A stretch of DNA of 64,000 nt from Alloascoidea hylecoeti (GCA_001600815.1 BCKZ01000016.1:361077-425076), one strand, 5' to 3'; positions 14,052 through 63,251 are shown, counted from the first letter of the stretch. The notes: generated from the letters alone by a model not told the origin. Program-made: numbers and translations.

Positions 14052-14192
14052 ATCTTTATGCTCGGGCATTACGCATATCAGTGAGGATTTGTTCCGAGAT
14101 TGTGTATTTGCTGGTTGAAAACTTTAACCTAGACCGCTCTTTATTACCGTACAGCCTCTGGCTGCGGTTTTAAAGGAATTTTTGGATAAACC
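14052..14192 (+). ncRNA. SNR14: U4 spliceosomal snRNA
   Basis: ATCTTTATGCTCGGGCATTACGCATATCAGTGAGGATTTGTTCCGAGATTGTGTATTTGCTGGTTGAAA closely matches the yeast U4 5' region (U6-pairing stems and kink-turn). Sm site AATTTTTGG at 14177-14185. The 3' end is approximate. Confidence 0.93.
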
Positions 14193-14214
14193 GATTAGTT
14201 GTGTAACTTTGGTC

Positions 14215-19533: not shown

Positions 19534-19669
19534 AGATATAAAAGTTTGTGTATCATTAATTATTTTCCCCATTTTTTTTTTTTTTTTTTTTTCATCTTAT
19601 AATCATATTTTTGCAACTATAAGAAAAAGTAAGATAAATATAGCTATAGATTTATATAATGAAATAATT

Positions 19670-20403
19670 TTAAAATTGCCATTCAATTTTTGTCATATAG
19701 AGACTTAATCTAAAAATATCACATTCGAATGCATATTTGTTAAACTCTTGCCTTTTTAGTTCAAATAATTGTTTTTGTTTGTTAATACTTGACTTATTGT
19801 TAATGTTATGATTAACATTTGGAGTTAATATTGTAAGCTTTTCTTGTGCAATTGTGTTTAAAATAGTAAGTCCATATAAAAGAACTTCATGTTTAAAATG
19901 ATTTTTAGATGATGTAAAATTCTCAAGTTTTGTTGATGTATCTTTGTTAAAAATGTCATCAATGCCTTCACCTTCAATTTGATTCTGAATTTTTTTTTTT
20001 GGCTCTAATTCGCTTTTATCACTAGCTAAAGCTTCACTAAAAGGTGTCACGCTTCTTATAGATTTCAATACTCCTAAAATCTTATCCATCAATTGTATTA
20101 AAAGTTCTTAAGATATTTCATATTAGTTTATCAAGTCAAGATTATTATAATCACAAAACATACCATAAAATAAATCTAAAAAGTTAATTTGATTACATTT
20201 AGAAATCAAATTTGCTAAAAAATTAGATATTATTAATGTTATATTAAATTCTTTTAATTTTGAATAATTAGTTGGTAATGTTCTCATTGTAAGATTATAA
20301 TGATATGCTAAAGTTTTAGGTAACATTTTTAAAAGTGTTAAGAATGTTGAATTAATTAATTCATAAATAAAAGAATTATTAACAACATATTTAAATCTTT
20401 TGC

Positions 20404-20446
<43 letters not shown>

Positions 20447-21418
20447 ATTATTATTAATATTAAATTCTTTTGATTGTGATTGAATAAGTTGTGTAAAAAA
20501 TGAAAATAAATTTATAAAACTAATATCAAAAATTGAACTTGGTGAATTTTTTAATTGTTTAAAATTATTTGGTCCTAAATTTGGTAAATTTTCACTAATT
20601 GATAATAAATTAACTAAATTTTGTGAATCTGATTTTAATTGAAATTCATCTTCTAAAATTTGAAAAAATGTATTTAATTTATTTTTAATTGTTAATTCAT
20701 CAATTTGTTTTGAAGAAAATGCAATAAAAGTTGTTATAATATAAATATCTATAATTATTATTAGTTTAATTCGATTGTAATTAATTATTAAATCCATAAA
20801 AAAATATACCTTCTAAACTAGATTTTTGTTTATATGGTTTTAGTTTTATAACTTCAGATAAATCATTATAATCATATGTATATGAATTAGTTTTTTTAAG
20901 TAAATTCTCAGAATTTTGATTTATAATAGATTCTTCCTTTGAGTTCGAGTTTGATGATGAAGAAAGTTTCTTTCTTTTAACAATATGATCCCCTTTTTTT
21001 GAAATAATACTTGAATTTTGAATTAAAGGTTCATTATTTTTAATATAACTTGACAATTTATCTAATTGTAATCTTAATTGCATAGCTTCATATAATTTCC
21101 ATTCATATTTAGTTTGCCAATATTCAGTCACATCAAATTGTTTTTTAACCAATGAATCAACAAAACCTAGAAAAATGTTGGAACTTTTGCACATATCTAT
21201 GGAAAGAGTAATCACTCACTTGAAATGGTATAAGATTCTGGTTTCATTTTGATTACAGAAACGGCCTGTTATATCAAAGGTAATAAAGAGTTAGATTGAA
21301 TCACAACATGAAGAATGTGATCATGATTAATAAATAATAATTAATGTAAGCATACAACTGTAAATTTAAACATCTCTTCTTCAGAAGAAAATAATTTCTC
21401 AAATTGTATTAAACTCAT
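19670..21418 (-). CDS. Hypothetical multi-exon protein with a poly-Asn tract
   Basis: ATG at 21418 (MSLIQFEKLFSSEEEMFKFTV|GTATGC). ORF pieces 20781-21215, 20123-20797 and 19670-20092 are separated by plausible GT..CTAAT..AG introns. No family recognised. Confidence 0.55.
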
Positions 21419-22237
21419 AATTAATAAATGTACAATTAAAAAGAAAGAAAAAAAAAAAGTAGCAAGCTTTTGTAAACTTTTTTCTTTTTGGGAATTGTCA
21501 TTTTTGAGTTACTATGTGGTCACGTGGTGTGGTGTGGAAGTGCGACAGCAAACAGTTTTGGATAATAGATTTACAATAATCTTTCTATACTGAAATAAGT
21601 TTTTGATCAGCAATTGTTTAGAATTGTATTTTTGTTATGTATGGGTATTTCGTATTTCATTGCTATTCAAATATTCAATGATTTATTAGGTTGTATGTTG
21701 TCTAGATCTCGTAAAGTTGATAAACAACTGAAATGTTGGGCCTCATGAAATAGCAACACTATAAATCTTTCCTTTCTGGTAATACTGGTGCTATTAATAG
21801 ATACTTGCTTCAAGCCACATACTACAAACTTCAAACATGAAATTTGAGCAATAAAAATTGTTTCAAATAGAGCTTGTATTGTAATGTGTAGTTTTTGAGG
21901 ATCAATCAATTACATTTTTATAATTATAGTTACAATATTGGTTTGATGAACATTTGATGAACATGCATAATAACTACAACAACACAAGAAAAAGGCTTGC
22001 TAATAGCTATTAACGTTTTAAGATACATTAGCTATAGATTTAAATAAGAAAAAAAATCACACGATTTATTGTAATCTTTCTATATTTATTTATATGTGTA
22101 TATTTATGTTGTTCAAAAAGAAAAAAAAAAAAAAAATCTTTTTTTAAAGAGCGCGCTAGCAAAATAAAGCAGAATAATAAAAATTAAAAAAAAAAATTAA
22201 AAAAAAATATGGAAAAAAAAGTGTTTATATAACCCCG

Positions 22238-26342: not shown

Positions 26343-28531
26343 ATGATACAAGAAATTGAAATGGCTCATGTTAGCACTATAGATACAGATGATCTTCCCC
26401 CATCATATAGCCGTTTGTACAAAACCGATATGTTGTACAATACAATTGCAATGGATAATACAAATAAAAGCCTAAGGCATTATGATGTAATGACAACCCT
26501 TGGAAGCTTACGAGATAACAAAATCAATGTTAATAGATTGGGGATTGATCCGTTAGAAGAACTTGAACCGATTGAAACAAAAGAACACAATTCAATTAGA
26601 CTTTGGCAGCGGATAATTAACACCTCATTTCACAGAATCTTCATGATTATACTCTCGGTTTTAATGTTCGTTATCTTTAATAACATCGTTTATACTGGAA
26701 TAATAGATAATGAACTTTTATTGATTCAAAATAGCAAAGAACAATTGATTACCTATACCACCCCTAAAAATTCAATTTCGTCTAATTATAATATTAATGA
26801 TATTCAATATAAAGGTTTGTTAGGGTCTCTTAACTATCAATCAATTAAATATATTAATTCATCTGATCTAATAGTTAATACTTTTAATACATCAATATAT
26901 AAAACAATATCTCATACAACAAATCAATTTCAAAATTCTTTAATTCAATTAACAAATATTTCAATAAATATTTCAAACCAAACAATTTCAACTTATTCTA
27001 ATGTCTTAAACTCTACAATAACAAATATTTCAAATAATTGGAGAAATACATCTTCATCACTATTAAACTTAAAAAATGAATTACAACAAGAAGCACTTTT
27101 TGTTGGTGTTGAAGGATCTAAAAGAGTATCATTTGATGAAATGATTCTTAATTCATCTTGGATTGATAATTTAATACAAAATAATAATATTTCTTTATCT
27201 AATTTAGTAATATATAATGATTTAATATCTTCAAAACAAAATTTTATAAATCAATTATCTTTTAAAAATGAAACTGAAATTATTATTTTTAAACTTCAAA
27301 ATATTTTAAATGAGTTTTCAAATAATTATAAATCAAATGTTACAAATTTGATATTAAGTTTTAATACTTCAATGATAAATAAAAATTACACTAAAAATTA
27401 TGATTATAATGAAATGAAATTACAAAATCAAACGAAATCAACTGACAAAATTAATATAAAATATTCTACAGAACTTGAAGATTTATATTATTCAAATTTA
27501 ATTGATGCTAAAACTTCTATTAATCTATTTACAAAGGTATTTTACATTACTTGCATACCAATCATTGTAATTACAATATTATATATTTTTTACGAAAGCT
27601 TATTTCATAATAGTTGTTTAAATTTAAATTTGGATACAGATATCCATCTTGACCAAAAATTTTCTAATGATCACTCAAATGTTTACATGATAAATTCAAT
27701 ACCAAATATCATTGTAAATAAAATGAATAAAATAATTGCATATGATGATAATTCTTCAACTTATAATTATATTTATTGGTTTTCAACATTTGTATTCTCA
27801 AGATATATGCAACTTCTTTTCCAAATGACAATTTTTTCATTTTGTTTCTATCTTATACAAATACCATTTTTAACAGCATTAGAGGAGTGTAAGCAAAAAA
27901 ATGGATTGATTGATTATAACAAACAATTACAAAATAAGCGAGAATTAATTGACGATAAAGTTACTGCTACCCAGTGTATATGGTACTCTCAAGTTCTTCA
28001 AGATGTTCAGTCACAGCAACAGAAATTTAATTATCAACTTGGTCAATTAGCTAAAATAGCTATGGACAACTCCTCTAATGAAACAGATCATTTCATTGAA
28101 TCCATAACGAATAAAGTCGATGAAATGTTCACCAACACACCTAATCTATTGCAAAAGGTGAGAAGATTTACAATCAATTAATTGTAACATTTATACTAAC
28201 TTAATTTCTTTTTCTGTAGTCTGTTAAAAATATGGTTCCAAAATATATGGACATACTTAGATCCACAAATATGTTTTATGAATCCATAATTTCTAATTCA
28301 AGTATTTTGAATTTAGATTTGACCCTATCGCCTTGGTATACTACAACATGTACAATCCCAACACATCATAAAAATTCCAATCATTTAAACCCCATACAAC
28401 CCCCTAATATTCAAAAACTGGTCGATATATGTCGACAGATTATAACAATTTTGGGAATTTCCTGTAGTGTCTTTTCATGTTTGTGGCTTATTTCTCTAAT
28501 TATCTATGTGTATATAAGAGTCCGAGTGTAA
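26343..28531 (+). CDS. PRM1: Multi-pass glycosylated membrane protein, divergent Prm1-like; intron 28158-28219
   Basis: Topology of TM, long Asn-rich N-glycosylated loop, TM, loop, YWFSTFVFSRYMQLLFQMTIFSFCFYLIQIPFL (Prm1-like W..Y.....L....L....Q..L), coiled region and terminal TM. Intron GTGAGA..TACTAAC..TAG joins ORF 28232-28531 in frame. Confidence 0.6.
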
Positions 28532-34053: not shown

Positions 34054-34152
34054 CTGCAGAACTGTATATTTCAGTACATGCACACCCGACTTTTCAAATT
34101 AATCAAAGAGAAATCTCAGCTTACGACAAAAGTACCATCAGCATCTTTAACA

Positions 34153-35046
34153 ATGGCTTTCAACAAAACTGTCAAGTCCTCTGCCTATACTTCTCGTTTC
34201 CAAACTCCTTTTAGAAGAAGACGTGAAGGTAAAACCGATTACTATGCTAGAAAACGTTTAATCACCCAGCACAAAGCTAAATATGCCACCCCAAAATATA
34301 GATTGGTGGTTCGTTTTACAAACAAAGATATTATTGCCCAGATTATTTCTTCTCAAATTTCTGGTGACATTGTCTTGACCGCAGCTTATGCCCATGAGCT
34401 ACCCAGATACGGAATTAATCACGGTCTTACCAATTGGTCAGCTGCCTACGCTGTCGGTCTTTTGATTGCCAGAAGAACATTGCAAAAGTTGGGATTAGAT
34501 GAAAAATATCCAGGTGTTGAAGAGGTTGAGGGTGAATACGAAATCACTGAAGCCATTGAAGATGGTCCTCGCCCATTCAAGGTTTTCCTTGATACTGGTT
34601 TACAAAGAACCACAACTGGTGCTCGTGTCTTTGGTGTCTTAAAGGGTGCCTCAGATGGTGGTTTGTATGTTCCACATTCTGAAAATAGATTTCCAGGTTT
34701 TGATATCGAAGGCAAAGAACTTGATGCTGAAGTTTTAAGAAAATACATTTTCGGTGGTCATGTCGCCGAATATATGGAAGAATTAGCTGATGATGACGAG
34801 GAGAAATTCAAGCAAATTTTCAAACGCTATTTGGATGATGATATTGAGGCTGATGCCATTGAAGATATCTATACTGAAGCTCATTCCAAGATTAGAGAAG
34901 ATCCTTCTTTCAAACCTACCGAAAAGAAATTTACTAAGGAGCAATACGCTGCCAACTCTAAAAAATACAGACAATATAAGCTCACAGCAGCAGAGAGAAA
35001 GGAGAGAATCCAAAAGAAGATTGCTGCTCTTCAACAACAAGCTTAA
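34153..35046 (+). CDS. RPL5: 60S ribosomal protein uL18/L5
   Basis: MAFNKTVKSSAYTSRFQTPFRRRREGKTDYYARKRL...; strong codon bias. The true start is the second Met of the tracked ORF. Confidence 0.98.
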   Translation: MAFNKTVKSSAYTSRFQTPFRRRREGKTDYYARKRLITQHKAKYATPKYRLVVRFTNKDIIAQIISSQISGDIVLTAAYAHELPRYGINHGLTNWSAAYAVGLLIARRTLQKLGLDEKYPGVEEVEGEYEITEAIEDGPRPFKVFLDTGLQRTTTGARVFGVLKGASDGGLYVPHSENRFPGFDIEGKELDAEVLRKYIFGGHVAEYMEELADDDEEKFKQIFKRYLDDDIEADAIEDIYTEAHSKIREDPSFKPTEKKFTKEQYAANSKKYRQYKLTAAERKERIQKKIAALQQQA

Positions 35047-40498: not shown

Positions 40499-42514
40499 AT
40501 GTCAGAATCGGAAAATACGCCCACAACTGGAGAAAATAACTTCCCAGCCGTTGAAAATTTGTCTGCCGAAGCCACTGACGCGTCTATACCAGAAACTTCA
40601 AATCTTTCGACGGTGACCACCAAAGATGAAAAACCAGATGTCAAACAAGAAGTAACAAATACATTGGAAAATAACACGTACATATCTAATGATATCGTTA
40701 ATTCATCTGAGAAAGCGTTCGCTGATGATAATACCTTAACTCCCGTGGTTGATGACGATGGTGATGCCTCAATGCGAGACGCGACGCCAACCCCCACACC
40801 TGCACCATTCACTATAAAAGAACCAACAAGTACACCACAGGCAGATCAACCTTTACCGGACCCAGAAGCCTTTTTATCTATGCAGCTAAAACCGGTTGCT
40901 CTTCCCATTTTTTCGAGATGGTTCTCATTTGACTCGATTAACGAACTTGAGAAGAAGTCTTTACCACAATTCTTTAACTCCCAATCTTTATACCATACAC
41001 CCCAAGCTTATCAAAAAATCAGAAATTTCATTATTCAGACTTGGCGTTTAAATCCAAACCAATACTTGACAATTACTGCGGCAAGAAAAAATGTAGCTGC
41101 TGATATCGAAAGTGTAGTATCAATTCATCGTTTCTTGAGTAAGTGGGGGTTGATCAACTATAATGTTGATGGGAGCACAATTCCCAGTGCTCTGGGACCT
41201 CAATCAACTAGGGGCTTCAGCATTGTTTTAGATACCCCTGTTGGTATCCAAGCTTTGGTTCCTGAAGTTAAGCAGACGGATAAAGGGAAATCATTAGGTA
41301 TAAAGAGACGGTTTGAAGAAGACCAACCGAAGCAGAATTCAGGTATGAAAGTGGAACCAGATACTATAACCAAGGATGAGGATCGTTCATTACCTTTAAA
41401 TATGGAATTGAGGAAAAATATTTATGATCCTAGTGTTGATTCTACTGCTTTGCAAGATGAAAATCAACTTCGAATAAACGATGTTAATAATAAAACATTC
41501 ACGTGTTATCTAACTGGATCACAAGTAACTGATGTTCACTTTAATTCTTTAAGGTATAAAGGCGTTAATGGACATGCTATTAATGGAAATGTGACCTCTT
41601 TGAAAAATGGGGGTTTTCCAACAGAAAATAATGCAGAAACTGGTATTGTCAATTTGGAAGATGTCTTCAAGAAAGGTGGCAAGTTATTATATCCACCTTC
41701 TATTGCTTGGACTGATCAAGAATTGGTATTACTATTGGAAGGCATTGAGATGTTTGAAGATAACTGGGAACAAATCGCAGATCATGTTGGTACAAGAGAT
41801 AAAAGTCAATGCATCACAAGATATGTCCAATTGCCCATTGATGAACAGTATATCACGAAGAAGAAAATAGAAATGGCTAAAAAAAATAAAAAAGTTGGTG
41901 GAAAATTGGAAATGGAAAAAGTTATATCTTTTTTAACTAATTATGTTGATGAAAATCTAGCTAAGAAAGTTGCACAAAAATTACGGTTAAAGCACCCTGA
42001 AAAGAACCCAGATAATTTCTTTGAGGATGGCTCTACTATGTTAACTAAAGCTTCTACTAAACTTTCTTCAAAACAAACATTTTCCGATATATCTACAGTG
42101 GAGGACCAAGCACTATTAAAACAACAAATTGAACTCACAATATCCAAATTTCAGGCAAAATTGTCGCAAATAACAGCTTTTGAGTCACAGATATCGCAAT
42201 CTTTACACACAATTCAAAAACAAAAAAGACAAATTCTTAATGATAAGTTATCATTACAGAAACAAGCGATATTAGTACTTAACTCACTCCAAAAAACCCG
42301 ACAGTTGACCCTAAACACAACTGGTAATGTTAATTCACAAACCTCACCACTGATGTCTGAGTTGAATGTAATTGTTAATACAAATACAAGGGCGTTGTTT
42401 AAAAAGAGAGATGATAGAACCAAGAAGGATAGTAAGGACAATGGGTCATCTACCAATGGAGAAATTGTTGCTGCTAAAGGAGAGAGCAAACTGTATAATT
42501 ATTGGTTTGACTGA
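40499..42514 (+). CDS. RSC8: SWIRM+SANT chromatin-remodelling subunit (Rsc8/Swi3 family)
   Basis: SWIRM (FSRWF....NELEKKSLPQFF...RNFII.TWRLNP.QYLT.TA.RKN...HRFL.KWGLINY) and SANT (WTDQELVLLLEGIEMF..NW.QIADHVGTR...QC). A degenerate ZZ-like segment favours RSC8 over SWI3. Confidence 0.8.
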   Translation: MSESENTPTTGENNFPAVENLSAEATDASIPETSNLSTVTTKDEKPDVKQEVTNTLENNTYISNDIVNSSEKAFADDNTLTPVVDDDGDASMRDATPTPTPAPFTIKEPTSTPQADQPLPDPEAFLSMQLKPVALPIFSRWFSFDSINELEKKSLPQFFNSQSLYHTPQAYQKIRNFIIQTWRLNPNQYLTITAARKNVAADIESVVSIHRFLSKWGLINYNVDGSTIPSALGPQSTRGFSIVLDTPVGIQALVPEVKQTDKGKSLGIKRRFEEDQPKQNSGMKVEPDTITKDEDRSLPLNMELRKNIYDPSVDSTALQDENQLRINDVNNKTFTCYLTGSQVTDVHFNSLRYKGVNGHAINGNVTSLKNGGFPTENNAETGIVNLEDVFKKGGKLLYPPSIAWTDQELVLLLEGIEMFEDNWEQIADHVGTRDKSQCITRYVQLPIDEQYITKKKIEMAKKNKKVGGKLEMEKVISFLTNYVDENLAKKVAQKLRLKHPEKNPDNFFEDGSTMLTKASTKLSSKQTFSDISTVEDQALLKQQIELTISKFQAKLSQITAFESQISQSLHTIQKQKRQILNDKLSLQKQAILVLNSLQKTRQLTLNTTGNVNSQTSPLMSELNVIVNTNTRALFKKRDDRTKKDSKDNGSSTNGEIVAAKGESKLYNYWFD

Positions 42515-42899
42515 TAATATTGGTTTAAGTTGTAATGTTATAAATATTAATTGAAATTGATGTAAGTATATTATACCATGAATTCCGATAACATTGGTGT
42601 GTGACGAGTTGTTTCCGTCGATATTCTCCGTAACAATCTGTATTATTAAGGTACCATGAGGAACATTATAATGCTTACCATTTGGACACCATCTGCCATC
42701 CTGTTCAATGGTTCAGTGGCAAGGGATGCTAGTGGAGACTTTTAGATTCTTTTTTGCTCTTCTACAAATAACCCTAGTATAAAAACAGATCAGATCTTTC
42801 TTGCTACCGTAAGTGTACTACTCTTCATTACAACCTGCAGCTGTGGACAGCGCGTAATTTCACGGCGATTCAGGATTTTCGAAGATCTCCTACTTCACA

Positions 42900-43796
42900 C
42901 AAATGGCTTTCGTCATACACCTTCGGCTAGAAATATTTAAGTGCAACATTAATTACAAAAACTGTAGAAATATTCCTTATAGGGAAGAAAATCCAATGAC
43001 ACCTCAATTAAGCCTAAAGGATTGGCATGTATTGTATACGAAACGAAGTTGGGCTCTCCAATTGAAGTATTTGAGAAATGATAGACGCGTCCTACAAACC
43101 AGCAATAGTTCTCCACGCGATTCAACACCCAACTGTTCCGAGGACCGAAACTTGTGTCCGAAAGTCAAATATTTTACCTAGGTGTGAATTCGAAGCACAA
43201 TTGGTACGCCTCCTGACCATAATTTGCGTCCAAATTCTCAAAAATATAATAGAAGCCTCACCTCGGCGAAATGTTTGACGAAATTTTCAGAGACACTATA
43301 ATCTTTATATGCGGCAATACTCATGTTCATAAATCTAGTGATATCATGTCGTGGTTGGAAGAGGGAGGAATTAAAGTGATTTGATAGCCTGCATAAATCG
43401 TCAGAATCAGACCCTATTGAGCAGGTCCCAAAATATTTATCGTCAAAACTAAACCAATCCCAATAAAACCATGCGGAAGCAATAAACTCAAATACCTTAA
43501 TTAGGTGAATACTTGGGAAGGTACTTCGGCAGAATTCATACAGATTTCCTCCTCGAAATTGTGTCTTGAAAGTTGAGGGTCATAAATGAGCATTGAAAAA
43601 ATGGTGCTGGTAATGTGGCAGACTAAGCGACTAATAAGCCTTACATTACACTTCAAATAACATAAATCAAAAGAGTAGAATGAGATCTTATTTTTTATTC
43701 CATACAAAGTATTTAATAAATTTTATTTAATACGTGAATATGGTTTTGAAATTTAAATTTTCCTGCAGGGGCCACTTTTTTTTCCCCCCAACTGTA
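42900..43796 (+). mobile_element. Degenerate Tc1/mariner transposon relic with one surviving terminal repeat
   Basis: PQLSLKD...KRSWAL resembles Tc1 'KP.LS......RL.WA'. Positions 43300-43425 translate, with stops and a frameshift, as GNTHVHKS..IMSWLEEGGIKVI**PA*S...DPIEQV, matching DNA..H.....W....GI.V..WPA.SPDLNPIE.VW. The end GGGCCACTTTTTTTTCCCCCCAACTG|TA at 43794 is a CAGT-type TIR plus TA. Confidence 0.7.
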
Positions 43797-44529
43797 TGAA
43801 CATCCATTACATATTGGACTCGAGGACTCTATGTAATAACTGGTCCAAAGATTCTAAATCGTTTGGGTTGGTTCTATGTCAGCCGAAACAGCCTGAACTA
43901 CACTAAATGAATTACTGGTATAATTACCAGTGGAGGTAAAGCCGGAAATGATGCTTCTTTGCTGTCACACGACTTTAGTAATGAGATTTGCCTTTTTGGC
44001 CCATAACTTCCGATTGATAAAGTGACACCTACTTATGGATGGTTGTTGTAGGCCTATAGATAGATCTAGAGTTGAAACAGGAAACATAAAGGGATCATTG
44101 CGTTAGGGAATGGGAGTTAAGAACAGAGAAGTAAGATATGGAATCGTGAGATAAGGTATGGAAATGGTGAAATAAGGATAAAGTTTTAGATATAAAAAGA
44201 TAAGATGATTTCTTAAAAGTTTAAGAAATTTCATCTGCCCATATAGGCCTGTGGCTATAGCTGGCCATGGTCAATAAATTATTATTATCTGATTACTCAA
44301 TTGCATTTTGATTTGTCATTCAGCATGAAAACTTTCCAACTGTTAACTGTCTCACAAGGGTAGAATCCAGTTGCCTTAGCGTTATGAATTTCAACTAATT
44401 TTTAGTGATGTTCGTTGATCAAACCTTCAAGTCTGGCATACCAAAATTTAAGTTCATCTTCATAGGTACAGAGAAACCAGTATTCATCCAATTTGGGAGT
44501 CTTTACATTTATTATCCGTGACAGTTTGG

Positions 44530-47430
44530 TTTCCGAGTTACAGCTACGTGCGTATATATACGAAGTCCACAACAGCCGGTTGCAACAATGTTTAACGTTA
44601 ACAGCAACAATTAACTATTGCAAGAGTAATGTTAATCGTTATATATTGTTATAAGCAATTGAGATTGAAAATCCGCATATATTAACACGCTTTAAACCGA
44701 AGTATATAAATAATAATAATAACTTTTGTAGACCAAATCGAAGTCAAAGGAACCTTAATTAATTAAAGTTATTAATTTGAAGATACAATATTTCCCTTTG
44801 AAAAGCTTTTGTTTATCAATAATAGAATCCCATGTCATACACTCAGGGATTTATACAAGTCGATTTGAATAATCATAATCTATTAGATTTATTGGGTTTT
44901 ATTGGAAGCTAGTTAAAGATATTAGATTAAATTTTATAAATAGAAGGGGGTGGCTGATTATTTTAAGAAAGGAAGGAAAAGAAATAGTTGACAATAAAGA
45001 ATAAAGATTTATTTGGGATAGTTCTACAAATGACCCGTTAGCTCTTATGGCACAAGCAACTCAAGCAATGATGGAGAGTGTCAGATTGATGAGAAGAAAC
45101 CCAACAAGAATAATCTAAAGAAATTGAGACTTTAAAGAGTAGTCAGGTAGAAGTAAACCCATATAATCCTATTATTTTTGGCCACTTTGGATTATTGAAG
45201 ATGTAAAAGAAGCTCATTAATATTGACTAATTTAAATTCGTTTAAGGGTACTCAACCCTAAACTAAAGATAATGGCAAGAATATATCTATTAAGATTGCG
45301 ATTATTTGCAGCAACATTGTAAATTATAATTGAAAATAATATTAATTTAAGTTTCAACGTAAATTTATAAACGGATATACAAATGATTATATGATTATGA
45401 ATGCTTCGGAATTTAAAAGTCCAATCTTATAATAAAGTTAATACAATTTAAAGAATCTATTTCCCCCTTATACAAATATCACTGGGTTCGCATATAATGA
45501 ATATTGGTAAAAGCGGTTCACTATAATTCAATATTTATGTTCACCCAATGTCACCCATATAAACATACAATACAATATAATATAGCTGTGACTTATCAGG
45601 CTCGTATCTGGGACCATCAATATGATACAATATGTAACACATCTTCATACTAGTTTATAGTATAAGTGAAATGGTAAGTCTAGATGTATTGTTTGACATT
45701 ACTATAGTTATATGTAGGAAGGATACTCGGAAGTATGATCATCACGAGGATAAAAAAAGTATTTCGTAATCACAATATAGGCCATATGCGCGATACGAAA
45801 ACACGCGAGTAAGCTGAGGTCAATTCAACATTTTCAATAACTGATTTTAAATTTTAACAATTATATAGCCAAATACGTTACTCTTCCTGACTCTTTATAA
45901 TCGCCATTTAATGTTGCAATGATCACACTGACACTGGTGATGTTTAAATACTAAACCATAAAGCATTTTTGTTCGATCACTTGTTTTTTCACTACTGAAC
46001 TAATTATGGCTTCTCTATTAACATTGGGGAGAGAAAGCCCGTCTACTAACTGTTTATTTGATGATTATGAGCTCTTTATCTAACACATATTGTATAAAAA
46101 TATATATTCTTGTTATTAAAATAAACAAAGTTAGTACAATATCTATATATTTAGCTCATATTTAATAATAGCTTATAGCTAGTCTTATAAATCTTTATAT
46201 GTGGTGGTTATAAATAGCAATATACGCTCTATCTGCTCATATAAGCTGATATTATCGTAGAACTGACTCTCTACTGACAGACTCTTGTTCAAAACGTATT
46301 ATATTTATTTAATGCTTCCAGAACAACTTAGTATAGGTATACTATGTACTTTATTTCTATATTTGTCTGTGGCTAATATATATAAATTGAGTTGAGCTGC
46401 AGTATAGCAACAACTGTCAAAGTATGCATATGCATGTGAGAACAAATCGCAAGTACACAACTCGAGCTCTTATAATTATTGTTGAGTTGGAAATTGTGCA
46501 ATAATTGAATATTTAATTATATTCATGAATATACTCTCTAATCTTTTAATATTTCTCTACTCCACTCAATAACATCTATAAGAGACATGACAATTGCCCC
46601 AATACCCCGATATAACATTAGAGTTCATCCCGTTGAACTTTGGAGAACCTGGTACACAAACAATAAAACGGAAATATTGGAGATGGAAGCAGACACAGAT
46701 CACTCGAGAATAATGAACGTCATCGAGCATGCTGAGAAGTACAGAGTGATACTTACTGGGGATTTGAGATTTTTAGATGAGGTTGAAAGACTGTCTCAAA
46801 GAAGATATCTTCAAAGTTATGATTATATTGATAAACTTCTCCATCCCACCACCTGGGCTCCTTTACTAACAGGTCGCGAAAGAAGCGAGTTTGACAAGCA
46901 ATTAATCAAATTCTATGAAGATCACAAAGGAGAGAGTGAAGTATTAAGACCAAACCCCCAGCCTCTTCGCAACGCTTCTCTATCTCTGATCATTATGGAC
47001 TTTGACAATAACGTACCTGCAGCTGATACTGGGATTCAGACTCAACCGACTCAGAGACCGGCCATACAGTCACTTATAGAACAGTCAGCAACTTCAAACC
47101 TAGTTCCTGATCAAGTACCTATACAGACACCTATGGATCACTTGACAGTTGTAAACACAGTTCCCTCTCAATCACGATCAGCCGAAACTTTGCAAGAACG
47201 TTTACAAAGTGCTTCTAGTAATTATCCTTGGAATGTGAATATTATTCTTGCACATTCAATGAACCAAAACTATACATACGGAGCTTAAAGAATAACATCG
47301 CTCCAATTATGACATTATTTATAGCTATGATCAAAAATATTAATGCTTGCTCTTTTGAAATTGTCTTTTAGTTTCTGTTTTCCTTTTAAAGGGTTCTCTA
47401 AGAACACTAGTAATTGTAATTATGATTATA
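44530..47430 (+). repeat. Left arm of a 2901-bp inverted repeat
   Basis: Reverse complement of 48493-51393. Paired coordinates sum to 95923 at both ends and at the ORFs, so there are no net indels. No mismatch was seen in the segments compared. Confidence 0.97.
46587..47288 (+). CDS. Orphan 233-aa protein, copy 1 (left arm)
   Basis: Intact ATG-TAA ORF, more GC-rich than its flanks, with TATATAAA about 200 bp upstream; identical to 48635-49336. Confidence 0.6.
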   Translation: MTIAPIPRYNIRVHPVELWRTWYTNNKTEILEMEADTDHSRIMNVIEHAEKYRVILTGDLRFLDEVERLSQRRYLQSYDYIDKLLHPTTWAPLLTGRERSEFDKQLIKFYEDHKGESEVLRPNPQPLRNASLSLIIMDFDNNVPAADTGIQTQPTQRPAIQSLIEQSATSNLVPDQVPIQTPMDHLTVVNTVPSQSRSAETLQERLQSASSNYPWNVNIILAHSMNQNYTYGA

Positions 47431-48492
47431 ATATAACGATTTGTATCAACAATATTTGTACTTTGATTTAATTGTAAGTCATCTTGTAAACAACGAAAAA
47501 TAAATAGATATTTTCAAACATAAGGGTATTTATACAACTGATAAGTTAAGCTTAACATTATCATATTCTATTAATACTTTACCTGAACATGAAATTAATT
47601 TTATTCGTTATAATTATGATTCTATCAAATCAGAACTATCAGTTACATATGATTATGGATTGAACTGTCAAGTATCCATATATATTGTTTTATTGGTACA
47701 AACTTGAATTGCAGCCAACCCCAATATCCAGTGGGATTTTTTAAAATATTTTCACAGCACTTTGCGATTACATGGAATAGAATGGTATTAAAATATGTAT
47801 TCACGTAGAAACGGTCTGCATCTCTAATAATTATAATCTTCCCATATATTGTACTAATATAGCTTTTATACTGACAACTCTAGCTATATAGTCATATTCA
47901 GACCATCTACAATTATATGCCAAACTTTCACTATAGCGCTCATGACTATTTACAATATATTAATATACAGTGTTGGGATTATTGAGCTACTCAATCAGTT
48001 CATTCTTGTTTTTATTCTTTCTGTCTTTTTCAGTTATAACACATTTTAAACAATTATATTTTACATTTTGAAACTGAAGTGATAGTTATACTGTATTATT
48101 TTATCGTTTGCTATGTCTGCTCATCGTAATTCATACTCATCTGGGTTCATCATTTATTAATCGCCTTCTCTAGTCTTTAATTTAAATCTTTTAAAAGTTA
48201 ATAAAAGTTTAATTAACCTACTCCTCTTTACAAAATTTACAGTTCTCGTCTCATACGCGACCATTTCTTTTTTATACTTTCGCGCTGAACTCAGTGAATC
48301 ATCTTTCAAAAGAAATTACATATCCAATGATTTGTCTCTTAAATATTAGCTCTTTTATCATTTGCATTAAGCAAACTAAACAGAGATTTGTAATTGAAGT
48401 ATTCAGATCATTTCCATTCATTATTATTCGATTCCAGTGGGTTGAATTATTTAGAAGGAAGAAGATCCACTCTGATTTAGTTCTCCTTAACC
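47431..48492. other. 1062-bp unique AT-rich core between the inverted arms (candidate centromere core or invertible segment)
   Basis: Bounded exactly by the inner ends of the two arms; no recognisable gene. Confidence 0.6.
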
Positions 48493-51393
48493 TATAATCA
48501 TAATTACAATTACTAGTGTTCTTAGAGAACCCTTTAAAAGGAAAACAGAAACTAAAAGACAATTTCAAAAGAGCAAGCATTAATATTTTTGATCATAGCT
48601 ATAAATAATGTCATAATTGGAGCGATGTTATTCTTTAAGCTCCGTATGTATAGTTTTGGTTCATTGAATGTGCAAGAATAATATTCACATTCCAAGGATA
48701 ATTACTAGAAGCACTTTGTAAACGTTCTTGCAAAGTTTCGGCTGATCGTGATTGAGAGGGAACTGTGTTTACAACTGTCAAGTGATCCATAGGTGTCTGT
48801 ATAGGTACTTGATCAGGAACTAGGTTTGAAGTTGCTGACTGTTCTATAAGTGACTGTATGGCCGGTCTCTGAGTCGGTTGAGTCTGAATCCCAGTATCAG
48901 CTGCAGGTACGTTATTGTCAAAGTCCATAATGATCAGAGATAGAGAAGCGTTGCGAAGAGGCTGGGGGTTTGGTCTTAATACTTCACTCTCTCCTTTGTG
49001 ATCTTCATAGAATTTGATTAATTGCTTGTCAAACTCGCTTCTTTCGCGACCTGTTAGTAAAGGAGCCCAGGTGGTGGGATGGAGAAGTTTATCAATATAA
49101 TCATAACTTTGAAGATATCTTCTTTGAGACAGTCTTTCAACCTCATCTAAAAATCTCAAATCCCCAGTAAGTATCACTCTGTACTTCTCAGCATGCTCGA
49201 TGACGTTCATTATTCTCGAGTGATCTGTGTCTGCTTCCATCTCCAATATTTCCGTTTTATTGTTTGTGTACCAGGTTCTCCAAAGTTCAACGGGATGAAC
49301 TCTAATGTTATATCGGGGTATTGGGGCAATTGTCATGTCTCTTATAGATGTTATTGAGTGGAGTAGAGAAATATTAAAAGATTAGAGAGTATATTCATGA
49401 ATATAATTAAATATTCAATTATTGCACAATTTCCAACTCAACAATAATTATAAGAGCTCGAGTTGTGTACTTGCGATTTGTTCTCACATGCATATGCATA
49501 CTTTGACAGTTGTTGCTATACTGCAGCTCAACTCAATTTATATATATTAGCCACAGACAAATATAGAAATAAAGTACATAGTATACCTATACTAAGTTGT
49601 TCTGGAAGCATTAAATAAATATAATACGTTTTGAACAAGAGTCTGTCAGTAGAGAGTCAGTTCTACGATAATATCAGCTTATATGAGCAGATAGAGCGTA
49701 TATTGCTATTTATAACCACCACATATAAAGATTTATAAGACTAGCTATAAGCTATTATTAAATATGAGCTAAATATATAGATATTGTACTAACTTTGTTT
49801 ATTTTAATAACAAGAATATATATTTTTATACAATATGTGTTAGATAAAGAGCTCATAATCATCAAATAAACAGTTAGTAGACGGGCTTTCTCTCCCCAAT
49901 GTTAATAGAGAAGCCATAATTAGTTCAGTAGTGAAAAAACAAGTGATCGAACAAAAATGCTTTATGGTTTAGTATTTAAACATCACCAGTGTCAGTGTGA
50001 TCATTGCAACATTAAATGGCGATTATAAAGAGTCAGGAAGAGTAACGTATTTGGCTATATAATTGTTAAAATTTAAAATCAGTTATTGAAAATGTTGAAT
50101 TGACCTCAGCTTACTCGCGTGTTTTCGTATCGCGCATATGGCCTATATTGTGATTACGAAATACTTTTTTTATCCTCGTGATGATCATACTTCCGAGTAT
50201 CCTTCCTACATATAACTATAGTAATGTCAAACAATACATCTAGACTTACCATTTCACTTATACTATAAACTAGTATGAAGATGTGTTACATATTGTATCA
50301 TATTGATGGTCCCAGATACGAGCCTGATAAGTCACAGCTATATTATATTGTATTGTATGTTTATATGGGTGACATTGGGTGAACATAAATATTGAATTAT
50401 AGTGAACCGCTTTTACCAATATTCATTATATGCGAACCCAGTGATATTTGTATAAGGGGGAAATAGATTCTTTAAATTGTATTAACTTTATTATAAGATT
50501 GGACTTTTAAATTCCGAAGCATTCATAATCATATAATCATTTGTATATCCGTTTATAAATTTACGTTGAAACTTAAATTAATATTATTTTCAATTATAAT
50601 TTACAATGTTGCTGCAAATAATCGCAATCTTAATAGATATATTCTTGCCATTATCTTTAGTTTAGGGTTGAGTACCCTTAAACGAATTTAAATTAGTCAA
50701 TATTAATGAGCTTCTTTTACATCTTCAATAATCCAAAGTGGCCAAAAATAATAGGATTATATGGGTTTACTTCTACCTGACTACTCTTTAAAGTCTCAAT
50801 TTCTTTAGATTATTCTTGTTGGGTTTCTTCTCATCAATCTGACACTCTCCATCATTGCTTGAGTTGCTTGTGCCATAAGAGCTAACGGGTCATTTGTAGA
50901 ACTATCCCAAATAAATCTTTATTCTTTATTGTCAACTATTTCTTTTCCTTCCTTTCTTAAAATAATCAGCCACCCCCTTCTATTTATAAAATTTAATCTA
51001 ATATCTTTAACTAGCTTCCAATAAAACCCAATAAATCTAATAGATTATGATTATTCAAATCGACTTGTATAAATCCCTGAGTGTATGACATGGGATTCTA
51101 TTATTGATAAACAAAAGCTTTTCAAAGGGAAATATTGTATCTTCAAATTAATAACTTTAATTAATTAAGGTTCCTTTGACTTCGATTTGGTCTACAAAAG
51201 TTATTATTATTATTTATATACTTCGGTTTAAAGCGTGTTAATATATGCGGATTTTCAATCTCAATTGCTTATAACAATATATAACGATTAACATTACTCT
51301 TGCAATAGTTAATTGTTGCTGTTAACGTTAAACATTGTTGCAACCGGCTGTTGTGGACTTCGTATATATACGCACGTAGCTGTAACTCGGAAA
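48493..51393 (-). repeat. Right arm of the 2901-bp inverted repeat
   Basis: Reverse complement of 44530-47430. Confidence 0.97.
48635..49336 (-). CDS. Orphan 233-aa protein, copy 2 (right arm)
   Basis: Translation identical to 46587-47288. Confidence 0.6.
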   Translation of the reverse strand: MTIAPIPRYNIRVHPVELWRTWYTNNKTEILEMEADTDHSRIMNVIEHAEKYRVILTGDLRFLDEVERLSQRRYLQSYDYIDKLLHPTTWAPLLTGRERSEFDKQLIKFYEDHKGESEVLRPNPQPLRNASLSLIIMDFDNNVPAADTGIQTQPTQRPAIQSLIEQSATSNLVPDQVPIQTPMDHLTVVNTVPSQSRSAETLQERLQSASSNYPWNVNIILAHSMNQNYTYGA

Positions 51394-52619
51394 ACAAATT
51401 GTAGTAAAATAAAAAAAATATCAATTCCTTTGAACTCAATTTAATAGTATTCATTTAACTTCCTTATTATTGCAAAATATCTTCCTATCTAATTTTCCAA
51501 CTCTTGGAAACTGGTATAAAATATATAGCTGCTCTAGACTGTGATCGTACGATATACCTATCCATTGCAATATTTATTATCAACTAAATGTAATCATGGT
51601 TAAATTCACCCTTAAAAATGTTGTTAACTACTATGATACTAGTACTGTAAAAAAAACACTCTATGTGTCCGACAACTGCGCATGAAGCTATATTTGGATA
51701 TTCCTACCCAGAAATCATTTAGTATATTGAACAATAAGATCAAAGATAGTATGACTTATAGCTAGCTATAGTATGATGATACTATGATCTATCGGTTTCA
51801 CTGATTGGAAAAATAATCATGTATTTCGCCCAGAACAAATAATATTTCAAATTTCCCTCCCACGTGTACAATTTTCAAATATTAATATAATTATTGGTTG
51901 TGTATTTGTTTAAAACAAAGTCTGGTATGGCAAACCACAATCTGTATCTACTATCTAGATTTATTATATGATATATCTCTATATGTCAAGACTACTACAC
52001 TTAAGAAAAAACCATAAATGTTGCTATATATGTATATAAAACTTATAATTAGGTGGTTGCAATTGTGTTAAAACAGATTCAAGATGTATTATATTACCTT
52101 AAAGTGATCATGTATTGAGTAACCTGTAACAATGTGGTCCCATTGAAATAAATTGAGGGTTGAAGATTCAAACTTAAGTTGAGTTTCCTGTGATCACTTG
52201 TTTCTAAATATAATATGGTGAATATTTTCAAATCTTCTCGTGATTTTGCGTGGGATATCGGCATACTGTACATCTATCTTAAACTTGATGTAAGACTTTT
52301 AGTTGTCATAGAACTTAGATTGATCCTGCTTATATTGTAGGGGTCTGACACCGATGCCTTTGGAGCTCTAGATGTGTTTAATATATATGATAATTATAAA
52401 CGATCAAGCTTAAGAGCGATGTTAGGGCCCCCCATTGGCATGGTTAACTGAGCATTGTATGAGGAGAAAACGGAATTGATCATCCAGGTCCAGAAATCAA
52501 TATTGGGGCTCTAGGTATATATATGGAGTTCAAATATAAGGGTTAGAGTGATTTTACGGGGTTTTACATATTTTGTGAATTTATAAGAATTTCCGAGATT
52601 TAATTTTGTTTTAGGGCTC

Positions 52620-52923
52620 AAATCAGCATAAGTGTATCAACACCATCACATTTACACTTAAATATTCTATAAGACGCATTTTTTTCTTCTTCTTCTTTTC
52701 TCTTCAACGCAAATTTAAACGATCTGAAGTTGTTGGGATTTTCCCATCAACATTTAAAGCGTGTATACGAGGGCGCCCATTGTGTGTTGCCCCATGACAT
52801 AATACATTTTTGATATTCAGATTGAGAGAGCAAATAATCGATCTTGGGTGCAGCATTTCATTTGAATAGCTTTGTCTTTTCTAAAGGTTCCCTTCGTGGT
52901 CCTGAATGAGATTTGGTGCAATG
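52620..52923 (-). pseudogene. Possible decayed coding fragment of unknown family
   Basis: About 100 codons in one frame with two internal stops (HCTKSHSGPRREPLEKTKLFK*NAAPKIDYLL...WGNTQWAPSYTRFKC*WENPNNFRSFKFALKRKEEEEK...). Confidence 0.3.
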
Positions 52924-53302
52924 ATCGGTAAAACATTTTAATTTATTTTTAACTTAAAGATAGTTTATATTTTATGTTTTGTTTTTCGTATTTGTATGAG
53001 TGTAAAATTTTTATGATGAATTTTAGGAAAACTGTTAACTTATGATAATTACAACTGAAAGATTTGTAGGTTATATTTGTAGCTCGTGTGCTCATTCAGC
53101 GAGCTGTAGTATCAATTGTAGTTAATTCAAAGGCCTTATGGTTACATTGTTTTATTATATTTGGTAGAAAAAATTGGTACGCGTATGTAAAAACTCCACA
53201 TTACACCCTTATAATTCTTTGGAATTCACCTTTCAAATCTTCATCTTGAACACACTAAAAGTTTGTTGATATACACTATAGATTATAACCATAACGACGG
53301 AA

Positions 53303-54587
53303 ATGACATCTTTAGAATATGGAATTATAGAAAATTTACAATTTCCATATGGTGATGGAATAAATACAGACACGTCTCAAAAATCTAAATACAATAAAAT
53401 TATATCTAATAGAAATAGTTTATCACGCACTCTTCTATTTGATAAACTTGTTAATGAGATGAGTAACGGGAAAATTGATAGTATGTTTTCGCAAAACCGT
53501 TTATAGATATTGAATTTTGCTAACGAAATCTGAAAAATTAGGTCAAAAATTTTATCCACCAACATCTTCGAAACAACTTATATATTTTATCAATGAAATC
53601 AATAAACAAATATCAAATACATTAAAAAAGACTTGCATTATCTATTATATCCTAAAAGATTATGGGGCTGATGATGAAGGGATAAAAGTATCTGATTATT
53701 TCAATAATAATGGGTTATTTGAACCAGAAGATATTGCGACCAACTTATTCTTTAATTCAACAAAATTACCGGAGAACTATAAAAATTTAATTGATGGACT
53801 GTATAATATTGATAACCTAGAATTTGATGTCGGTTTGAGTTATCTTATAAGGTCAAATATCCAGCCTACGTATTACGAAGAGATTATTAGCTATTTTGCA
53901 AAAGCTGATGAGTTGCATCAACCTAGACCAGCACATTATTATATTTTAACTTATATTTCAGTCACTCATCCCCCTTTAAACAATATGAATACAATTCTAC
54001 TTTATGTTGACTCGTTAATCAGTAACAATATGATTTTTGAATCTTTTAAAGAAATCCGTGCGTTGTCTGCCGATGAAAATAATAATTTAAAACAATTAAA
54101 AAATTTAGATGGAGAATCAGATGATAAAGATGATGATGAGACATCAGGGTCAATTTATGGCAGTTTGCTGCGCCATATTCTTAAAACTTTGATATTGAGG
54201 ACAATTGTCATCAAAAGTAATAATAAATATTCAAAAGACTCAAAAGATACTGAGGCATTAGGTACACCATTATTAATTGCAAATCTTTCAAGGAATTTTT
54301 TATCCGATGAAAGATTACGGGAAGTGTTGAACGATTTTATAGTTGATGATAAGAAAAGTATAGTTACACAAGACAACTTGCAACAGATTTATGGTTTTGA
54401 TATTACAAAAATTGATTCAATGAGTAATTACTTGATTGGTGTGAATAACGATTTTAAAATTATATCTAGAAATATCATCATACTACGGGGACTTCATTTG
54501 AACGAGATTGGAAAAGACTATACTGATAATAATAATGATGAGATGGAGGTGATAACAGATGTAAATAATGTATTGGTGTCAGTATAG
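53303..54587 (+). CDS. ELYS-like nuclear pore assembly protein (Ely5-like), intron 53481-53541
   Basis: FPY...I..NR..L...LLFDKL, YPPTS..QL......I......KK.CIIYYILKD and LP..Y..LIDGLY.ID..EF..GL.YL fit the ELYS domain. Intron GTATGT..GCTAAC..TAG joins the two ORFs in frame. Confidence 0.75.
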
Positions 54588-63179: not shown

Positions 63180-63251
63180 TCCGAAATAGTGTAATGGCTA
63201 GCACGGTCCGCTCTCACCGGGCAGATCGGGGTTCAATTCCCCGTTTCGGAG
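63180..63251 (+). tRNA. tRNA-Glu(CUC)
   Basis: TCCGAAA/TTTCGGA acceptor stem, anticodon loop CT-CTC-AC, GGTTCAATTCC T-loop, then an oligo-T terminator at about 63255-63261. Confidence 0.95.

What the first reader, a model, noticed from the sequence alone, without database searches (positions are those of the whole stretch)
46587..49336. Each arm carries an intact orphan gene, both pointing at the core; N-terminus weakly resembles a GCR1_C DNA-binding domain
Seen: identical 233-aa ORFs are arranged convergently and end about 140 bp from the core. The protein has a charged/aromatic N-terminal ~115 aa and a Q/P/T/S-rich low-complexity tail, a layout like a transcription factor. Inference (weak): PRYNIRVHPVELWRTWYTN...ILEME resembles the GCR1_C pattern (Y...R....V.ELW.EW..G..SI..LE) found in Gcr1/Msn1/Hot1, in the centromere protein Ndc10 and in Crypton transposons. 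The described Komagataella centromere arms are non-coding, so a DNA-binding gene within the arms would be unusual and might be a selfish, domesticated or locus-acting factor.
Basis: partly seen in the sequence, partly recalled or inferred. Interest (0 to 1): 0.75.

Follow-up and report, generated by a model that had tools for sequence, protein, structure and literature searches.

The report
Real gene inside yeast palindrome arms

Summary
Two 2.9-kb inverted arms, perfect over 2,901 nt, flank a ~1.05-kb core. Each arm carries an identical 233-codon ORF that points at the core and stops 142-151 nt from it. Independent short-read contigs support the palindrome.

The ORF is not an orphan. An exhaustive HMMER scan found 15 credible homologues:
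- a close, fast-diverging group (29-48% identity);
- a distant group that includes Yarrowia sp. B02 and Geotrichum candidum hypothetical proteins.

They share a ~125-residue N-terminal domain with 16-17 (near-)invariant, mostly aromatic positions. A disordered Q/P/T/S-rich tail follows.

GCR1_C is not supported. None of 16 family members hits PF12550. A confident AlphaFold model (pLDDT 77) matches no solved or viral fold. The domain is acidic to neutral in 10 of 13 members.

The host is not Komagataella. No protein tested has a ≥90% relative, and the best RSC8 hit is 38% identical.

The locus looks like an inverted-repeat centromere (10-kb gene-free region, K. phaffii-like geometry). This is unproven, because no genome, Hi-C, ChIP or RNA data were available. 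Whether the close homologues sit in other centromeres of the same genome is the key open question.

The parts
42515..52705 (.). About 10.2-kb gene-free region between the RSC8-like gene (ends 42514) and snR10 (starts 52706). It contains the palindrome.
   Evidence: ORF lists. Pfam on flanking ORFs. Pfam on 22 stop-to-stop frames of >=60 codons in or at the edge of this region gave no family at or above a curated cut-off. snR10 was found by Rfam.
44521..47439 (+). Left arm of the inverted repeat (perfect part 44530-47430).
   Evidence: The arm contig is at about 2x depth in X1.
48484..51402 (-). Right arm of the inverted repeat (perfect part 48493-51393).
   Evidence: The outer junction is seen as a loose end at 44521 in X1 and X2.
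47440..48483 (.). Unique core (1044 nt by the tool; 1062 nt between the perfect stretches). GC about 0.28. No ORF with a Pfam match and no Rfam match.
46587..47288 (+). Left copy of the 233-aa gene: N-terminal domain of about residues 1-125, then a Q/P/T/S-rich tail.
48635..49336 (-). Right copy of the same gene, identical in sequence.
44521..46586 (+). Outer 2.07 kb of the left arm. It is non-coding, GC 0.29-0.32, and holds the presumed promoter (mirrored at 49337-51402).
   Evidence: The promoter role is inferred only.

Best explanation
The two ORFs are the two palindrome copies of one genuine protein-coding gene. It belongs to a small, uncharacterised protein family found only in budding yeasts.

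The family is defined by a ~125-residue N-terminal alpha/beta domain. Motif 1 is P-x-Y-x4-H-P-x-E-x-W-x2-W-Y-x2-N. Motif 2 is R-x4-Y-x-Y...W-x-P-x-L-T-G-x-E-x-x-F-D, followed by R-P-x-P. A disordered Q/P/T/S-rich tail comes after the domain.

The gene lies at the inner end of each arm of a 2.9-kb perfect inverted repeat around a ~1-kb unique core, in a 10-kb gene-free region. By its geometry this is most likely an inverted-repeat ('repeat-defined') regional centromere of the K. phaffii / Barnettozyma type, in a different, AT-rich yeast that uses the standard code.

The two copies are kept identical by recombination or gene conversion between the arms (inferred, as in other IR centromeres).

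The protein is not a GCR1_C member. Its acidic, aromatic-rich folded domain plus disordered tail fits a protein-binding regulatory adaptor better than a DNA binder (inferred, low confidence).

Shown: the ORFs, the IR, the family, the fold model, and the lack of GCR1_C signal.
Inferred: centromere identity, expression, homogenisation mechanism and molecular role.
For: Gene is real:
- The frame is 248 codons, against a maximum of 163 in 500 shuffles.
- Codon usage is coding-like in the right frame, in both the domain and the tail.
- HMMER against 1.84 billion representatives gave 17 proteins at E<=1e-3. These are the query itself, one low-complexity giant (P0008), and 15 homologues down to E=2.8e-28.
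- The window protein carries the consensus residue at all invariant and near-invariant columns: Y80 W90 P92 E98 F109, and M1 P7 Y9 H14 P15 W19 W22 N26 R73 Y78 L94 R121.
- The start 'MTI..P.Y' is shared with four homologues and nearly with two more.

Named relatives: KAG5356318.1 from Yarrowia sp. B02 and CDO51760.1 from Geotrichum candidum.

Fold: AlphaFold2 with 13 sequences gave pLDDT 77.2 and pTM 0.69, with helices 15-25, 27-32, 39-52, 60-70, a hairpin at 78-81/87-90 and a helix at 96-112.

Palindrome is real: plus independent contigs and the 2x depth.

Centromere-like:
- The 10.2-kb stretch has no other gene, whereas most other gaps between the window's ORFs of >=120 aa are about 0.1-2 kb.
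- The arm and core sizes are close to K. phaffii (IR 2.0-2.7 kb, mid 0.9-1.3 kb, 0-1 differences) and to B. californica (IR 2.4-4.3 kb, 99-100% identity).

Standard genetic code: 5 of 5 CTG codons of ISU1 align with Leu in yeast Isu1.
Against: - No direct evidence that the locus is a centromere. No genome was held, so 'one per chromosome', Hi-C clustering and Cse4 binding could not be tested.
- The region is not the most AT-rich part of the window: 2-kb bins at 20-22 kb and 26-28 kb have GC 0.23, against 0.29-0.33 here.
- Described IR-centromere arms are non-coding and untranscribed in K. phaffii. An intact gene 142 nt from the core therefore fits a centromere less well.
- Purifying selection on this particular copy could not be measured, because no DNA of close relatives was available.
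- The model's middle part (residues 31-60) has pLDDT of only 59-67.
- The functional guess (protein-binding adaptor) rests only on charge and architecture.
Confidence: 0.55

Rival explanations
1. The palindrome is not a centromere. It is a gene-bearing inverted duplication: a two-copy 'gene-conversion haven' or an invertible segment. Comparable cases are the 8.5-kb-arm palindrome that holds MAT genes in Saccharomycopsis schoenii, and the palindromes that hold testis genes on sex chromosomes.
For: - The arms carry an intact, conserved gene.
- S. schoenii has many macro-palindromes, one with genes embedded in arms of 99.98% identity around a 2-kb spacer (PMC13148404, passages seen).
- AT-richness does not single the locus out.
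- No centromere assay was available.
Against: - The surrounding 10-kb region has no other gene.
- Only 0.7 kb of each 2.9-kb arm is coding.
- The arm and core sizes match known IR centromeres.
- No MAT-type domain was found in any of the ORFs scanned in or around the palindrome.
Confidence: 0.27
2. The ORF is a silent relic. A family member was duplicated into centromeric or otherwise repressed DNA, and its frame is still open only because the duplication or the last conversion event is recent.
For: - K. phaffii centromere regions are untranscribed.
- The family includes at least one N-terminally truncated member, P0009/P0148, which lacks motif 1.
- GC3 and the codon score are slightly off the reference genes: GC3 is 0.335 against 0.254, and the codon score is -4.01 against -3.69 to -3.89.
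Against: - All 17 conserved positions are intact.
- There is no stop or frameshift in 233 codons of a sequence in which shuffles reach 163 codons at most.
- The start codon coincides with that of the homologues.
- The tail also keeps in-frame codon bias.
Confidence: 0.12
3. One reading: the N-terminus is a divergent GCR1_C-type DNA-binding domain (as in Gcr1/Msn1/Hot1, Ndc10 and Cryptons). The protein would be a locus-acting or selfish factor.
For: - A short pattern resemblance exists around Y9...W19..W22.
- The architecture looks like a transcription factor.
Against: - PF12550 was not reported for the query at E<=10, nor for any of the 15 homologues at E<=1.
- The family profile against PDB sequences gave 6 hits at E<=10, all colicins or a viral VP1. 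No Ndc10/Cbf2 was among them.
- The domain pI is below 7 in 10 of 13 members.
- No target-site duplication, no recombinase or transposase ORF, and no extra copies at >=80% DNA identity over the ORF.
Confidence: 0.04

Closest known systems
Inverted-repeat centromeres of Komagataella phaffii (Coughlan et al. 2016, PMC5010909; outline and sections 5 and 9 read)
   Same: - Near-identical IR pair: 2.0-2.7 kb with 0-1 differences there; 2.9 kb here, with 6 mismatches confined to the edges.
- Unique mid region: 0.9-1.3 kb there, 1.04 kb here.
- The structure sits inside a 6-9 kb (here 10 kb) region without other genes.
   Different: - K. phaffii arms are described as untranscribed and carry no annotated gene. 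Here each arm holds an intact, conserved 233-codon gene ending 142 nt from the core.
- The host is not Komagataella.
- There are no Cse4, Hi-C or replication data here.
IR centromeres of Barnettozyma californica (Hession et al. 2025, PMC12711049; outline and sections 13 and 14 read)
   Same: IR pairs of 2.4-4.3 kb at 99-100% identity in long intergenic regions. They show that IR centromeres occur outside Pichiales and Serinales.
   Different: They are described as lying in intergenic regions, and the passages read mention no gene in the arms. Their supplementary figures were not seen.
MAT-bearing macro-palindrome of Saccharomycopsis schoenii (PMC13148404; passages only)
   Same: Protein-coding genes are embedded in nearly identical palindrome arms around a ~2-kb spacer, some close to centromeres.
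   Different: - Arms are 8.5 kb there and the genes are MAT genes.
- That organism belongs to a clade with an altered CUG reading (recalled), whereas here CTG reads as Leu.
- No MAT-type domain is present here.
Uncharacterised family: Geotrichum candidum CDO51760.1 ('hypothetical protein, no similarity') and Yarrowia sp. B02 KAG5356318.1
   Same: Same N-terminal domain with both motifs, and the same domain-plus-S/T/Q/P-tail architecture.
   Different: - Only 31-36% identical to the query over the domain.
- The Geotrichum-like gene at locus L003 is split by introns and lies in no inverted repeat.
- The query's close group has an extra helical insert (residues ~39-70 in 6 of 8 members) and is intron-less.
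GCR1_C domain (Pfam PF12550)
   Different: No profile match in 16 of 16 proteins. Motif 2 is absent from that pattern. No fold match. The charge is acidic or neutral.

Membership tests
GCR1_C (PF12550) | Significant match to the Pfam profile | tested here: not met
   The query had 0 families at E<=10. Among the 15 homologues, none hit PF12550 at E<=1. The only 4 hits were unrelated and below their cut-offs.
GCR1_C (PF12550) | Fold shared with a solved GCR1_C-containing protein (e.g. Ndc10/Cbf2) | tested here: inconclusive
   - Foldseek PDB: 0 matches at E<=0.001, best 0.24.
- VIA-align on 48,161 chains: best Z 3.0, none at Z>=5.
- No Ndc10 row was listed, but absence from a list does not exclude it.
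GCR1_C (PF12550) | Sequence-specific DNA binding | not testable with these tools
   Only indirect evidence: domain pI is below 7 in 10 of 13 members.
Inverted-repeat (repeat-defined) yeast centromere | Near-identical inverted repeats of kb size flanking a ~1-kb unique core | tested here: met
   Sizes compared with (K. phaffii; Barnettozyma).
Inverted-repeat (repeat-defined) yeast centromere | Lies in an unusually long gene-free region | tested here: met
   42515-52705 holds no gene other than the arm ORFs.
Inverted-repeat (repeat-defined) yeast centromere | Exactly one such structure per chromosome | not testable with these tools
   No whole genome is held for this window.
Inverted-repeat (repeat-defined) yeast centromere | CenH3/Cse4 occupancy or Hi-C centromere clustering | not testable with these tools
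   No such data could be reached.
Inverted-repeat (repeat-defined) yeast centromere | Arms non-coding and untranscribed (as described for K. phaffii) | tested here: not met
   Each arm has an intact family gene. Transcription is unknown.
New yeast family (Geotrichum CDO51760.1 / Yarrowia KAG5356318.1 type) | Both conserved motifs with all (near-)invariant residues | tested here: met
   E-values run from 2.8e-28 to 5.2e-4. The query carries the consensus residue at all 5 invariant and 12 near-invariant columns.
Mobile element (foldback transposon / Crypton) | Target-site duplication, transposase or recombinase gene, further copies in the genome | tested here: not met
   - The flanks TTATCCGTG and AGTAAAATA are unrelated.
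- No Pfam-bearing ORF lies in the arms or core.
- The arm contig is at 2x depth, not higher, and no >=80% paralogue was laid on the ORF.

The most novel reading that the evidence does not exclude
The seven close homologues (P0002-P0007 and P0009) would be paralogues from the same genome, each sitting in the inverted-repeat arms of a different centromere. They are 29-48% identical, form a star-like clade, are intron-less and share the 'MTI' start. Several lie on contigs of only 1.2-5.3 kb, as collapsed repeats would.

The yeast would then have a fast-evolving gene family embedded in its centromeres. The family's convergent transcription into the core, or its protein product, would take part in centromere identity or in centromere competition (drive).
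Probability: 0.12. Interest if true: 0.85.

Novelty: new variant of a known kind. Interest (0 to 1): 0.5.

Why it matters
IR centromeres described in yeasts (K. phaffii, C. tropicalis, Barnettozyma) are treated as non-coding structural elements. An intact, conserved gene 142 nt from the core would raise two possibilities. Either CenH3 chromatin can coexist with a gene, or this palindrome is a different kind of object.

The gene also defines a protein family with no Pfam model and no detectable known fold. In this lineage the family appears to have diversified faster than between Yarrowia and Geotrichum.

If the paralogues map to other centromeres, the system would make the co-evolution of centromere DNA with a linked gene directly testable. 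My three literature searches (listings only, plus the four papers opened) turned up no description of a protein-coding gene inside yeast IR-centromere arms. This is not an exhaustive search.

Tried and rejected
- Word-indexed protein search with the whole ORF: only the query itself was found.
- ESM Atlas with the query and with the Geotrichum relative: no usable hit.
- AlphaFold on the single sequence: pLDDT 34, unusable.
- Whole-genome search: no genome is held.
- Sequencing runs: 10 runs were listed and no RNA holder was among them, so expression is untested.
- X5 and X6 held 22% of the words. When laid, they proved to be low-coverage, identical sequence with 0 differences on the ORF pieces, so they are not a divergent relative and gave no dN/dS.
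- Metagenome scans:
  - The 5-sequence alignment gave 203 pattern matches, none a relative.
  - A degenerate motif-1 DNA pattern gave 3 loci, of which 1 (L003, Geotrichum-like) was real and 2 were chance.
  - The same pattern in prokaryote genomes gave 1 chance match in a bacterial MAG.
- Family profile against PDB sequences: only colicin and VP1 noise at E 0.2-1.8.
- BFVD viral folds, to test a Gag-like idea: best E 0.078.
- tblastn of 16 family proteins against the window: no third copy. All other hits had E>=0.18.
- Self-blastn of the gene-free region: no repeat other than the arms.
- Earlier scan notes: nothing on this genome or family.
- Synteny with published centromere-linked genes: none of the six flank-gene names queried was found in PMC12711049, and neither YND1 nor YER005W in the Ty5 preprint.
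- Placing the organism with an RSC8 tree failed: the window's protein sits on a 3.1-substitution branch with no supported position.


Full report
**1. The observation**

The window holds two identical 233-aa ORFs, at 46587-47288 (+) and 48635-49336 (-). They lie inside an inverted repeat that the repeat finder reports as 44521-47439 / 48484-51402: 2919 nt, printed as 100%, with 1044 nt between the arms.

A base-by-base comparison shows that the perfect part is 2901 nt (44530-47430 / 48493-51393). There are two mismatches at the outer edge (44524, 44529) and four at the inner edge (47431-47433, 47437).

The palindrome is not an assembly artefact. In Logan contigs of two independent data sets (X1, a metagenome; X2, an isolate), the arm is a separate contig set spanning exactly 44530-47430. 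Its depth is about twice that of the core and flank in X1 (18.5 against 9.9). The second outer junction appears as a loose end whose letters are the reverse complement of the window's right flank.

**2. Is the ORF a gene?**

- The stop-to-stop frame is 248 codons. In 500 shuffles of the arm the longest frame averaged 84 codons and never exceeded 163.
- Codon usage scored with the window's own genes prefers the annotated frame: -4.01 against -4.55 and -4.55. This holds in both the domain and the tail. Five reference genes score -3.69 to -3.89 in frame.
- Local GC rises to 0.36-0.37 over the ORF, against 0.28-0.32 in the rest of the arm and core.
- The decisive evidence is homology, described next.

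**3. Not an orphan**

The word-indexed search found only the query itself. The exhaustive HMMER scan of 1.84 billion representatives found 17 proteins at E<=1e-3: the query, one 3933-aa low-complexity protein that matches only the tail, and 15 homologues.

The homologues fall into two clades:

- Close group (P0002-P0007, P0009). E-values run from 2.8e-28 to 1.9e-7, with 29-44% identity to the query and 29-48% to each other. They are unnamed, from NCBI and/or Logan sources.
- Distant group. It includes KAG5356318.1 of Yarrowia sp. B02 and CDO51760.1 of Geotrichum candidum, annotated 'hypothetical protein, no similarity'.

Alignments A1, A2 and A4 give these conserved columns:

- invariant: Y80 W90 P92 E98 F109;
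- near-invariant: M1 P7 Y9 H14 P15 W19 W22 N26 R73 Y78 L94 R121.

The window protein has the consensus residue at all of them. Six of the seven close-group members start at the same position, four with the query's 'MTI'. The tails are not conserved in sequence but are S/T/Q/P-rich throughout.

None of the 16 proteins matches any Pfam family at or above its cut-off.

**4. Fold and the GCR1_C idea**

The single sequence gave an unusable model with pLDDT 34. With a 13-sequence alignment, AlphaFold2 gave pLDDT 77.2 and pTM 0.69 for residues 1-140:

- an ordered N-terminal strand-like segment;
- helices 15-25 and 27-32, which carry W19 and W22;
- a less confident helical hairpin at 39-70, which is missing in P0004, P0005 and the distant group;
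- a beta-hairpin at 78-81/87-90, carrying Y78, Y80 and W90;
- a helix at 96-112.

Fold searches found nothing:

- Foldseek against PDB: no match at E<=0.001, best 0.24.
- VIA-align against 48,161 representative chains: best Z 3.0, none at 5 or above.
- BFVD: no match at E<=0.001, best 0.078.
- The family profile against PDB sequences: six hits at E 0.2-1.8, all colicins or a VP1.

PF12550 (GCR1_C) is not reported for the query at E<=10, nor for any of the 15 homologues at E<=1. The domain's pI is below 7 in 10 of 13 aligned members, which is not what one expects of a DNA-binding module.

The better-conserved motif 2 has no counterpart in the pattern it quoted.

A very remote relation cannot be excluded without HHpred.

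**5. The host is not Komagataella**

- The arm and core sizes match none of the four K. phaffii centromeres.
- The window's GC is 33.6%.
- Six of ten window proteins were found in the 15-billion-protein collection. All six, including RPL5, are singletons at 90% identity.
- The RSC8-like neighbour's best non-self hit is 38% identical, to Wickerhamomyces ciferrii. In a tree it sits on a 3.1-substitution branch without a supported place.
- RPL5 scores best against Kluyveromyces lactis and S. cerevisiae chains (544 and 537 bits), ahead of Candida albicans (525), and far ahead of Neurospora and fission yeast. So the host is a budding yeast.
- All five CTG codons of ISU1 align with Leu of yeast Isu1. 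The standard code applies, and the two CTG codons of the ORF (residues 69 and 134) read Leu.

**6. What is the palindrome?**

It lies in a 10.2-kb stretch (42515-52705) between an RSC8-like gene and snR10 that has no other gene. I scanned 22 stop-to-stop frames of 60 codons or more in or at the edge of that stretch, and none matched a Pfam family at or above its cut-off. Most other gaps between the window's ORFs of 120 aa or more are about 0.1-2 kb.

The geometry is that of K. phaffii centromeres: IR 2.0-2.7 kb with 0-1 differences, mid 0.9-1.3 kb, in 6-9 kb untranscribed regions. It also resembles B. californica: IR 2.4-4.3 kb at 99-100% identity, in long intergenic regions.

Three points weaken the centromere reading:

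- The region is not the AT-richest in the window.
- No chromosome-wide, Hi-C or Cse4 test could be done.
- Described arms are non-coding.

A transposon is unlikely:

- The flanks show no target-site duplication.
- There is no recombinase-like ORF.
- The arm is present at two, not more, copies.

The rival I rate highest is a gene-bearing palindrome unrelated to the centromere, as seen for MAT cassettes in S. schoenii.

**7. The close group**

Its members are less alike (29-48%) than the Yarrowia and Geotrichum-type proteins are to each other (44-55%). Yet they share lineage-specific features: the 'MTI' start, the helical insert in most, and intron-less frames. The Geotrichum-like locus L003, by contrast, has its motifs split by stop-containing gaps, and its 12.6-kb contig has no inverted repeat of 80 nt or more.

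The window's organism has no close relative in the collection by the RPL5 and RSC8 tests. The simplest reading is therefore that the close group are fast-evolving paralogues of the same or a very near genome.

- The query's contig in the collection is 2901 nt, exactly the collapsed perfect arm.
- P0003 (2824 nt), P0009 (2826 nt), P0004 (1188 nt) and P0007 (5324 nt) also sit on short contigs.
- The window's ordinary genes sit on contigs of 16.7-21.4 kb.
- P0002, P0005 and P0006 are on contigs of 10.8-24.2 kb, so not all can be in collapsed repeats.
- P0009 and P0148 differ by one residue.

I give the 'one paralogue per centromere' reading about 12%.

**8. How it most likely works**

Shown:
- a real gene of a new family, present twice in a real perfect palindrome;
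- convergent copies, with their 3' ends 142 nt from a unique core.

Inferred:
- The palindrome is an IR-type centromere (about 55-60%).
- The arms are homogenised by intra-palindrome recombination, as proposed for other IR centromeres. This keeps both copies identical.
- The protein is a non-DNA-binding regulatory adaptor with a folded aromatic domain and a disordered tail (low confidence).
- If the gene is transcribed, its terminator region abuts the core from both sides.

**9. Verdict**

The gene and its unusual position are real. 'Orphan', 'GCR1_C' and 'Komagataella' are not supported. Interest is moderate (0.5). It would rise sharply if the paralogues map to other centromeres, or if Cse4 sits on this core.

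Noticed in passing
window 43123-43798: A dispersed repeat just left of the palindrome. Other contigs of the same organism (2456, 4280 and 287 nt long) align here at roughly 83-90% identity, and summed depth is about 3x the flank. Its nature (LTR or pericentromeric repeat) is unknown, and no Pfam domain was found in its ORFs.
   Followed up: partly
window 52706-52938 (+), 14052-14200 (+), 63180-63251 (+): snR10 H/ACA snoRNA (79 bits), U4 snRNA (100.7 bits) and tRNA-Glu(CTC). snR10 bounds the gene-free region on the right.
   Followed up: yes
window 40499-42514 (+): The RSC8/SWI3-like gene (SWIRM + Myb) next to the palindrome is extraordinarily diverged. Its best non-self hit is 38% identical, and its tree branch is 3.1 substitutions per site against a median of 0.43.
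   Followed up: partly
window 26343-28181 and 18000-22000: These stretches have GC of only 0.23-0.27, lower than the palindrome. They include a 612-codon ORF with no Pfam match and long ATA/TAA triplet runs.
   Followed up: no
window 34078-35046 (+): The RPL5 ORF as listed carries a 25-codon upstream extension. Homology to solved ribosomes starts at residue 26, 'MAFNKT'.
   Followed up: yes
window 53514-54587 (+): The first protein gene right of snR10 has an ELYS (nuclear-pore assembly) domain at E 6e-25, if the frame is read from 53514. The listed ATG ORF (53985-54587) alone gave no Pfam hit.
   Followed up: partly
L003 3360-4340 (-): The Geotrichum-like family member in a metagenome contig has its two motifs separated by stop-containing gaps, which are probably two introns. 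Several database 'proteins' of the distant group end in ...LRVS/LRVC, as if read into the second intron.
   Followed up: partly
window 48299-48580 (-): A 93-codon ORF straddles the core/arm boundary. It has no Pfam match and low-complexity hydrophobic content, and is probably spurious.
   Followed up: partly
window 44521-47439: the repeat finder prints '100% complementary' for the 2919-nt arms, although 6 positions near the edges mismatch. The perfect stretch is 2901 nt.
   Followed up: yes
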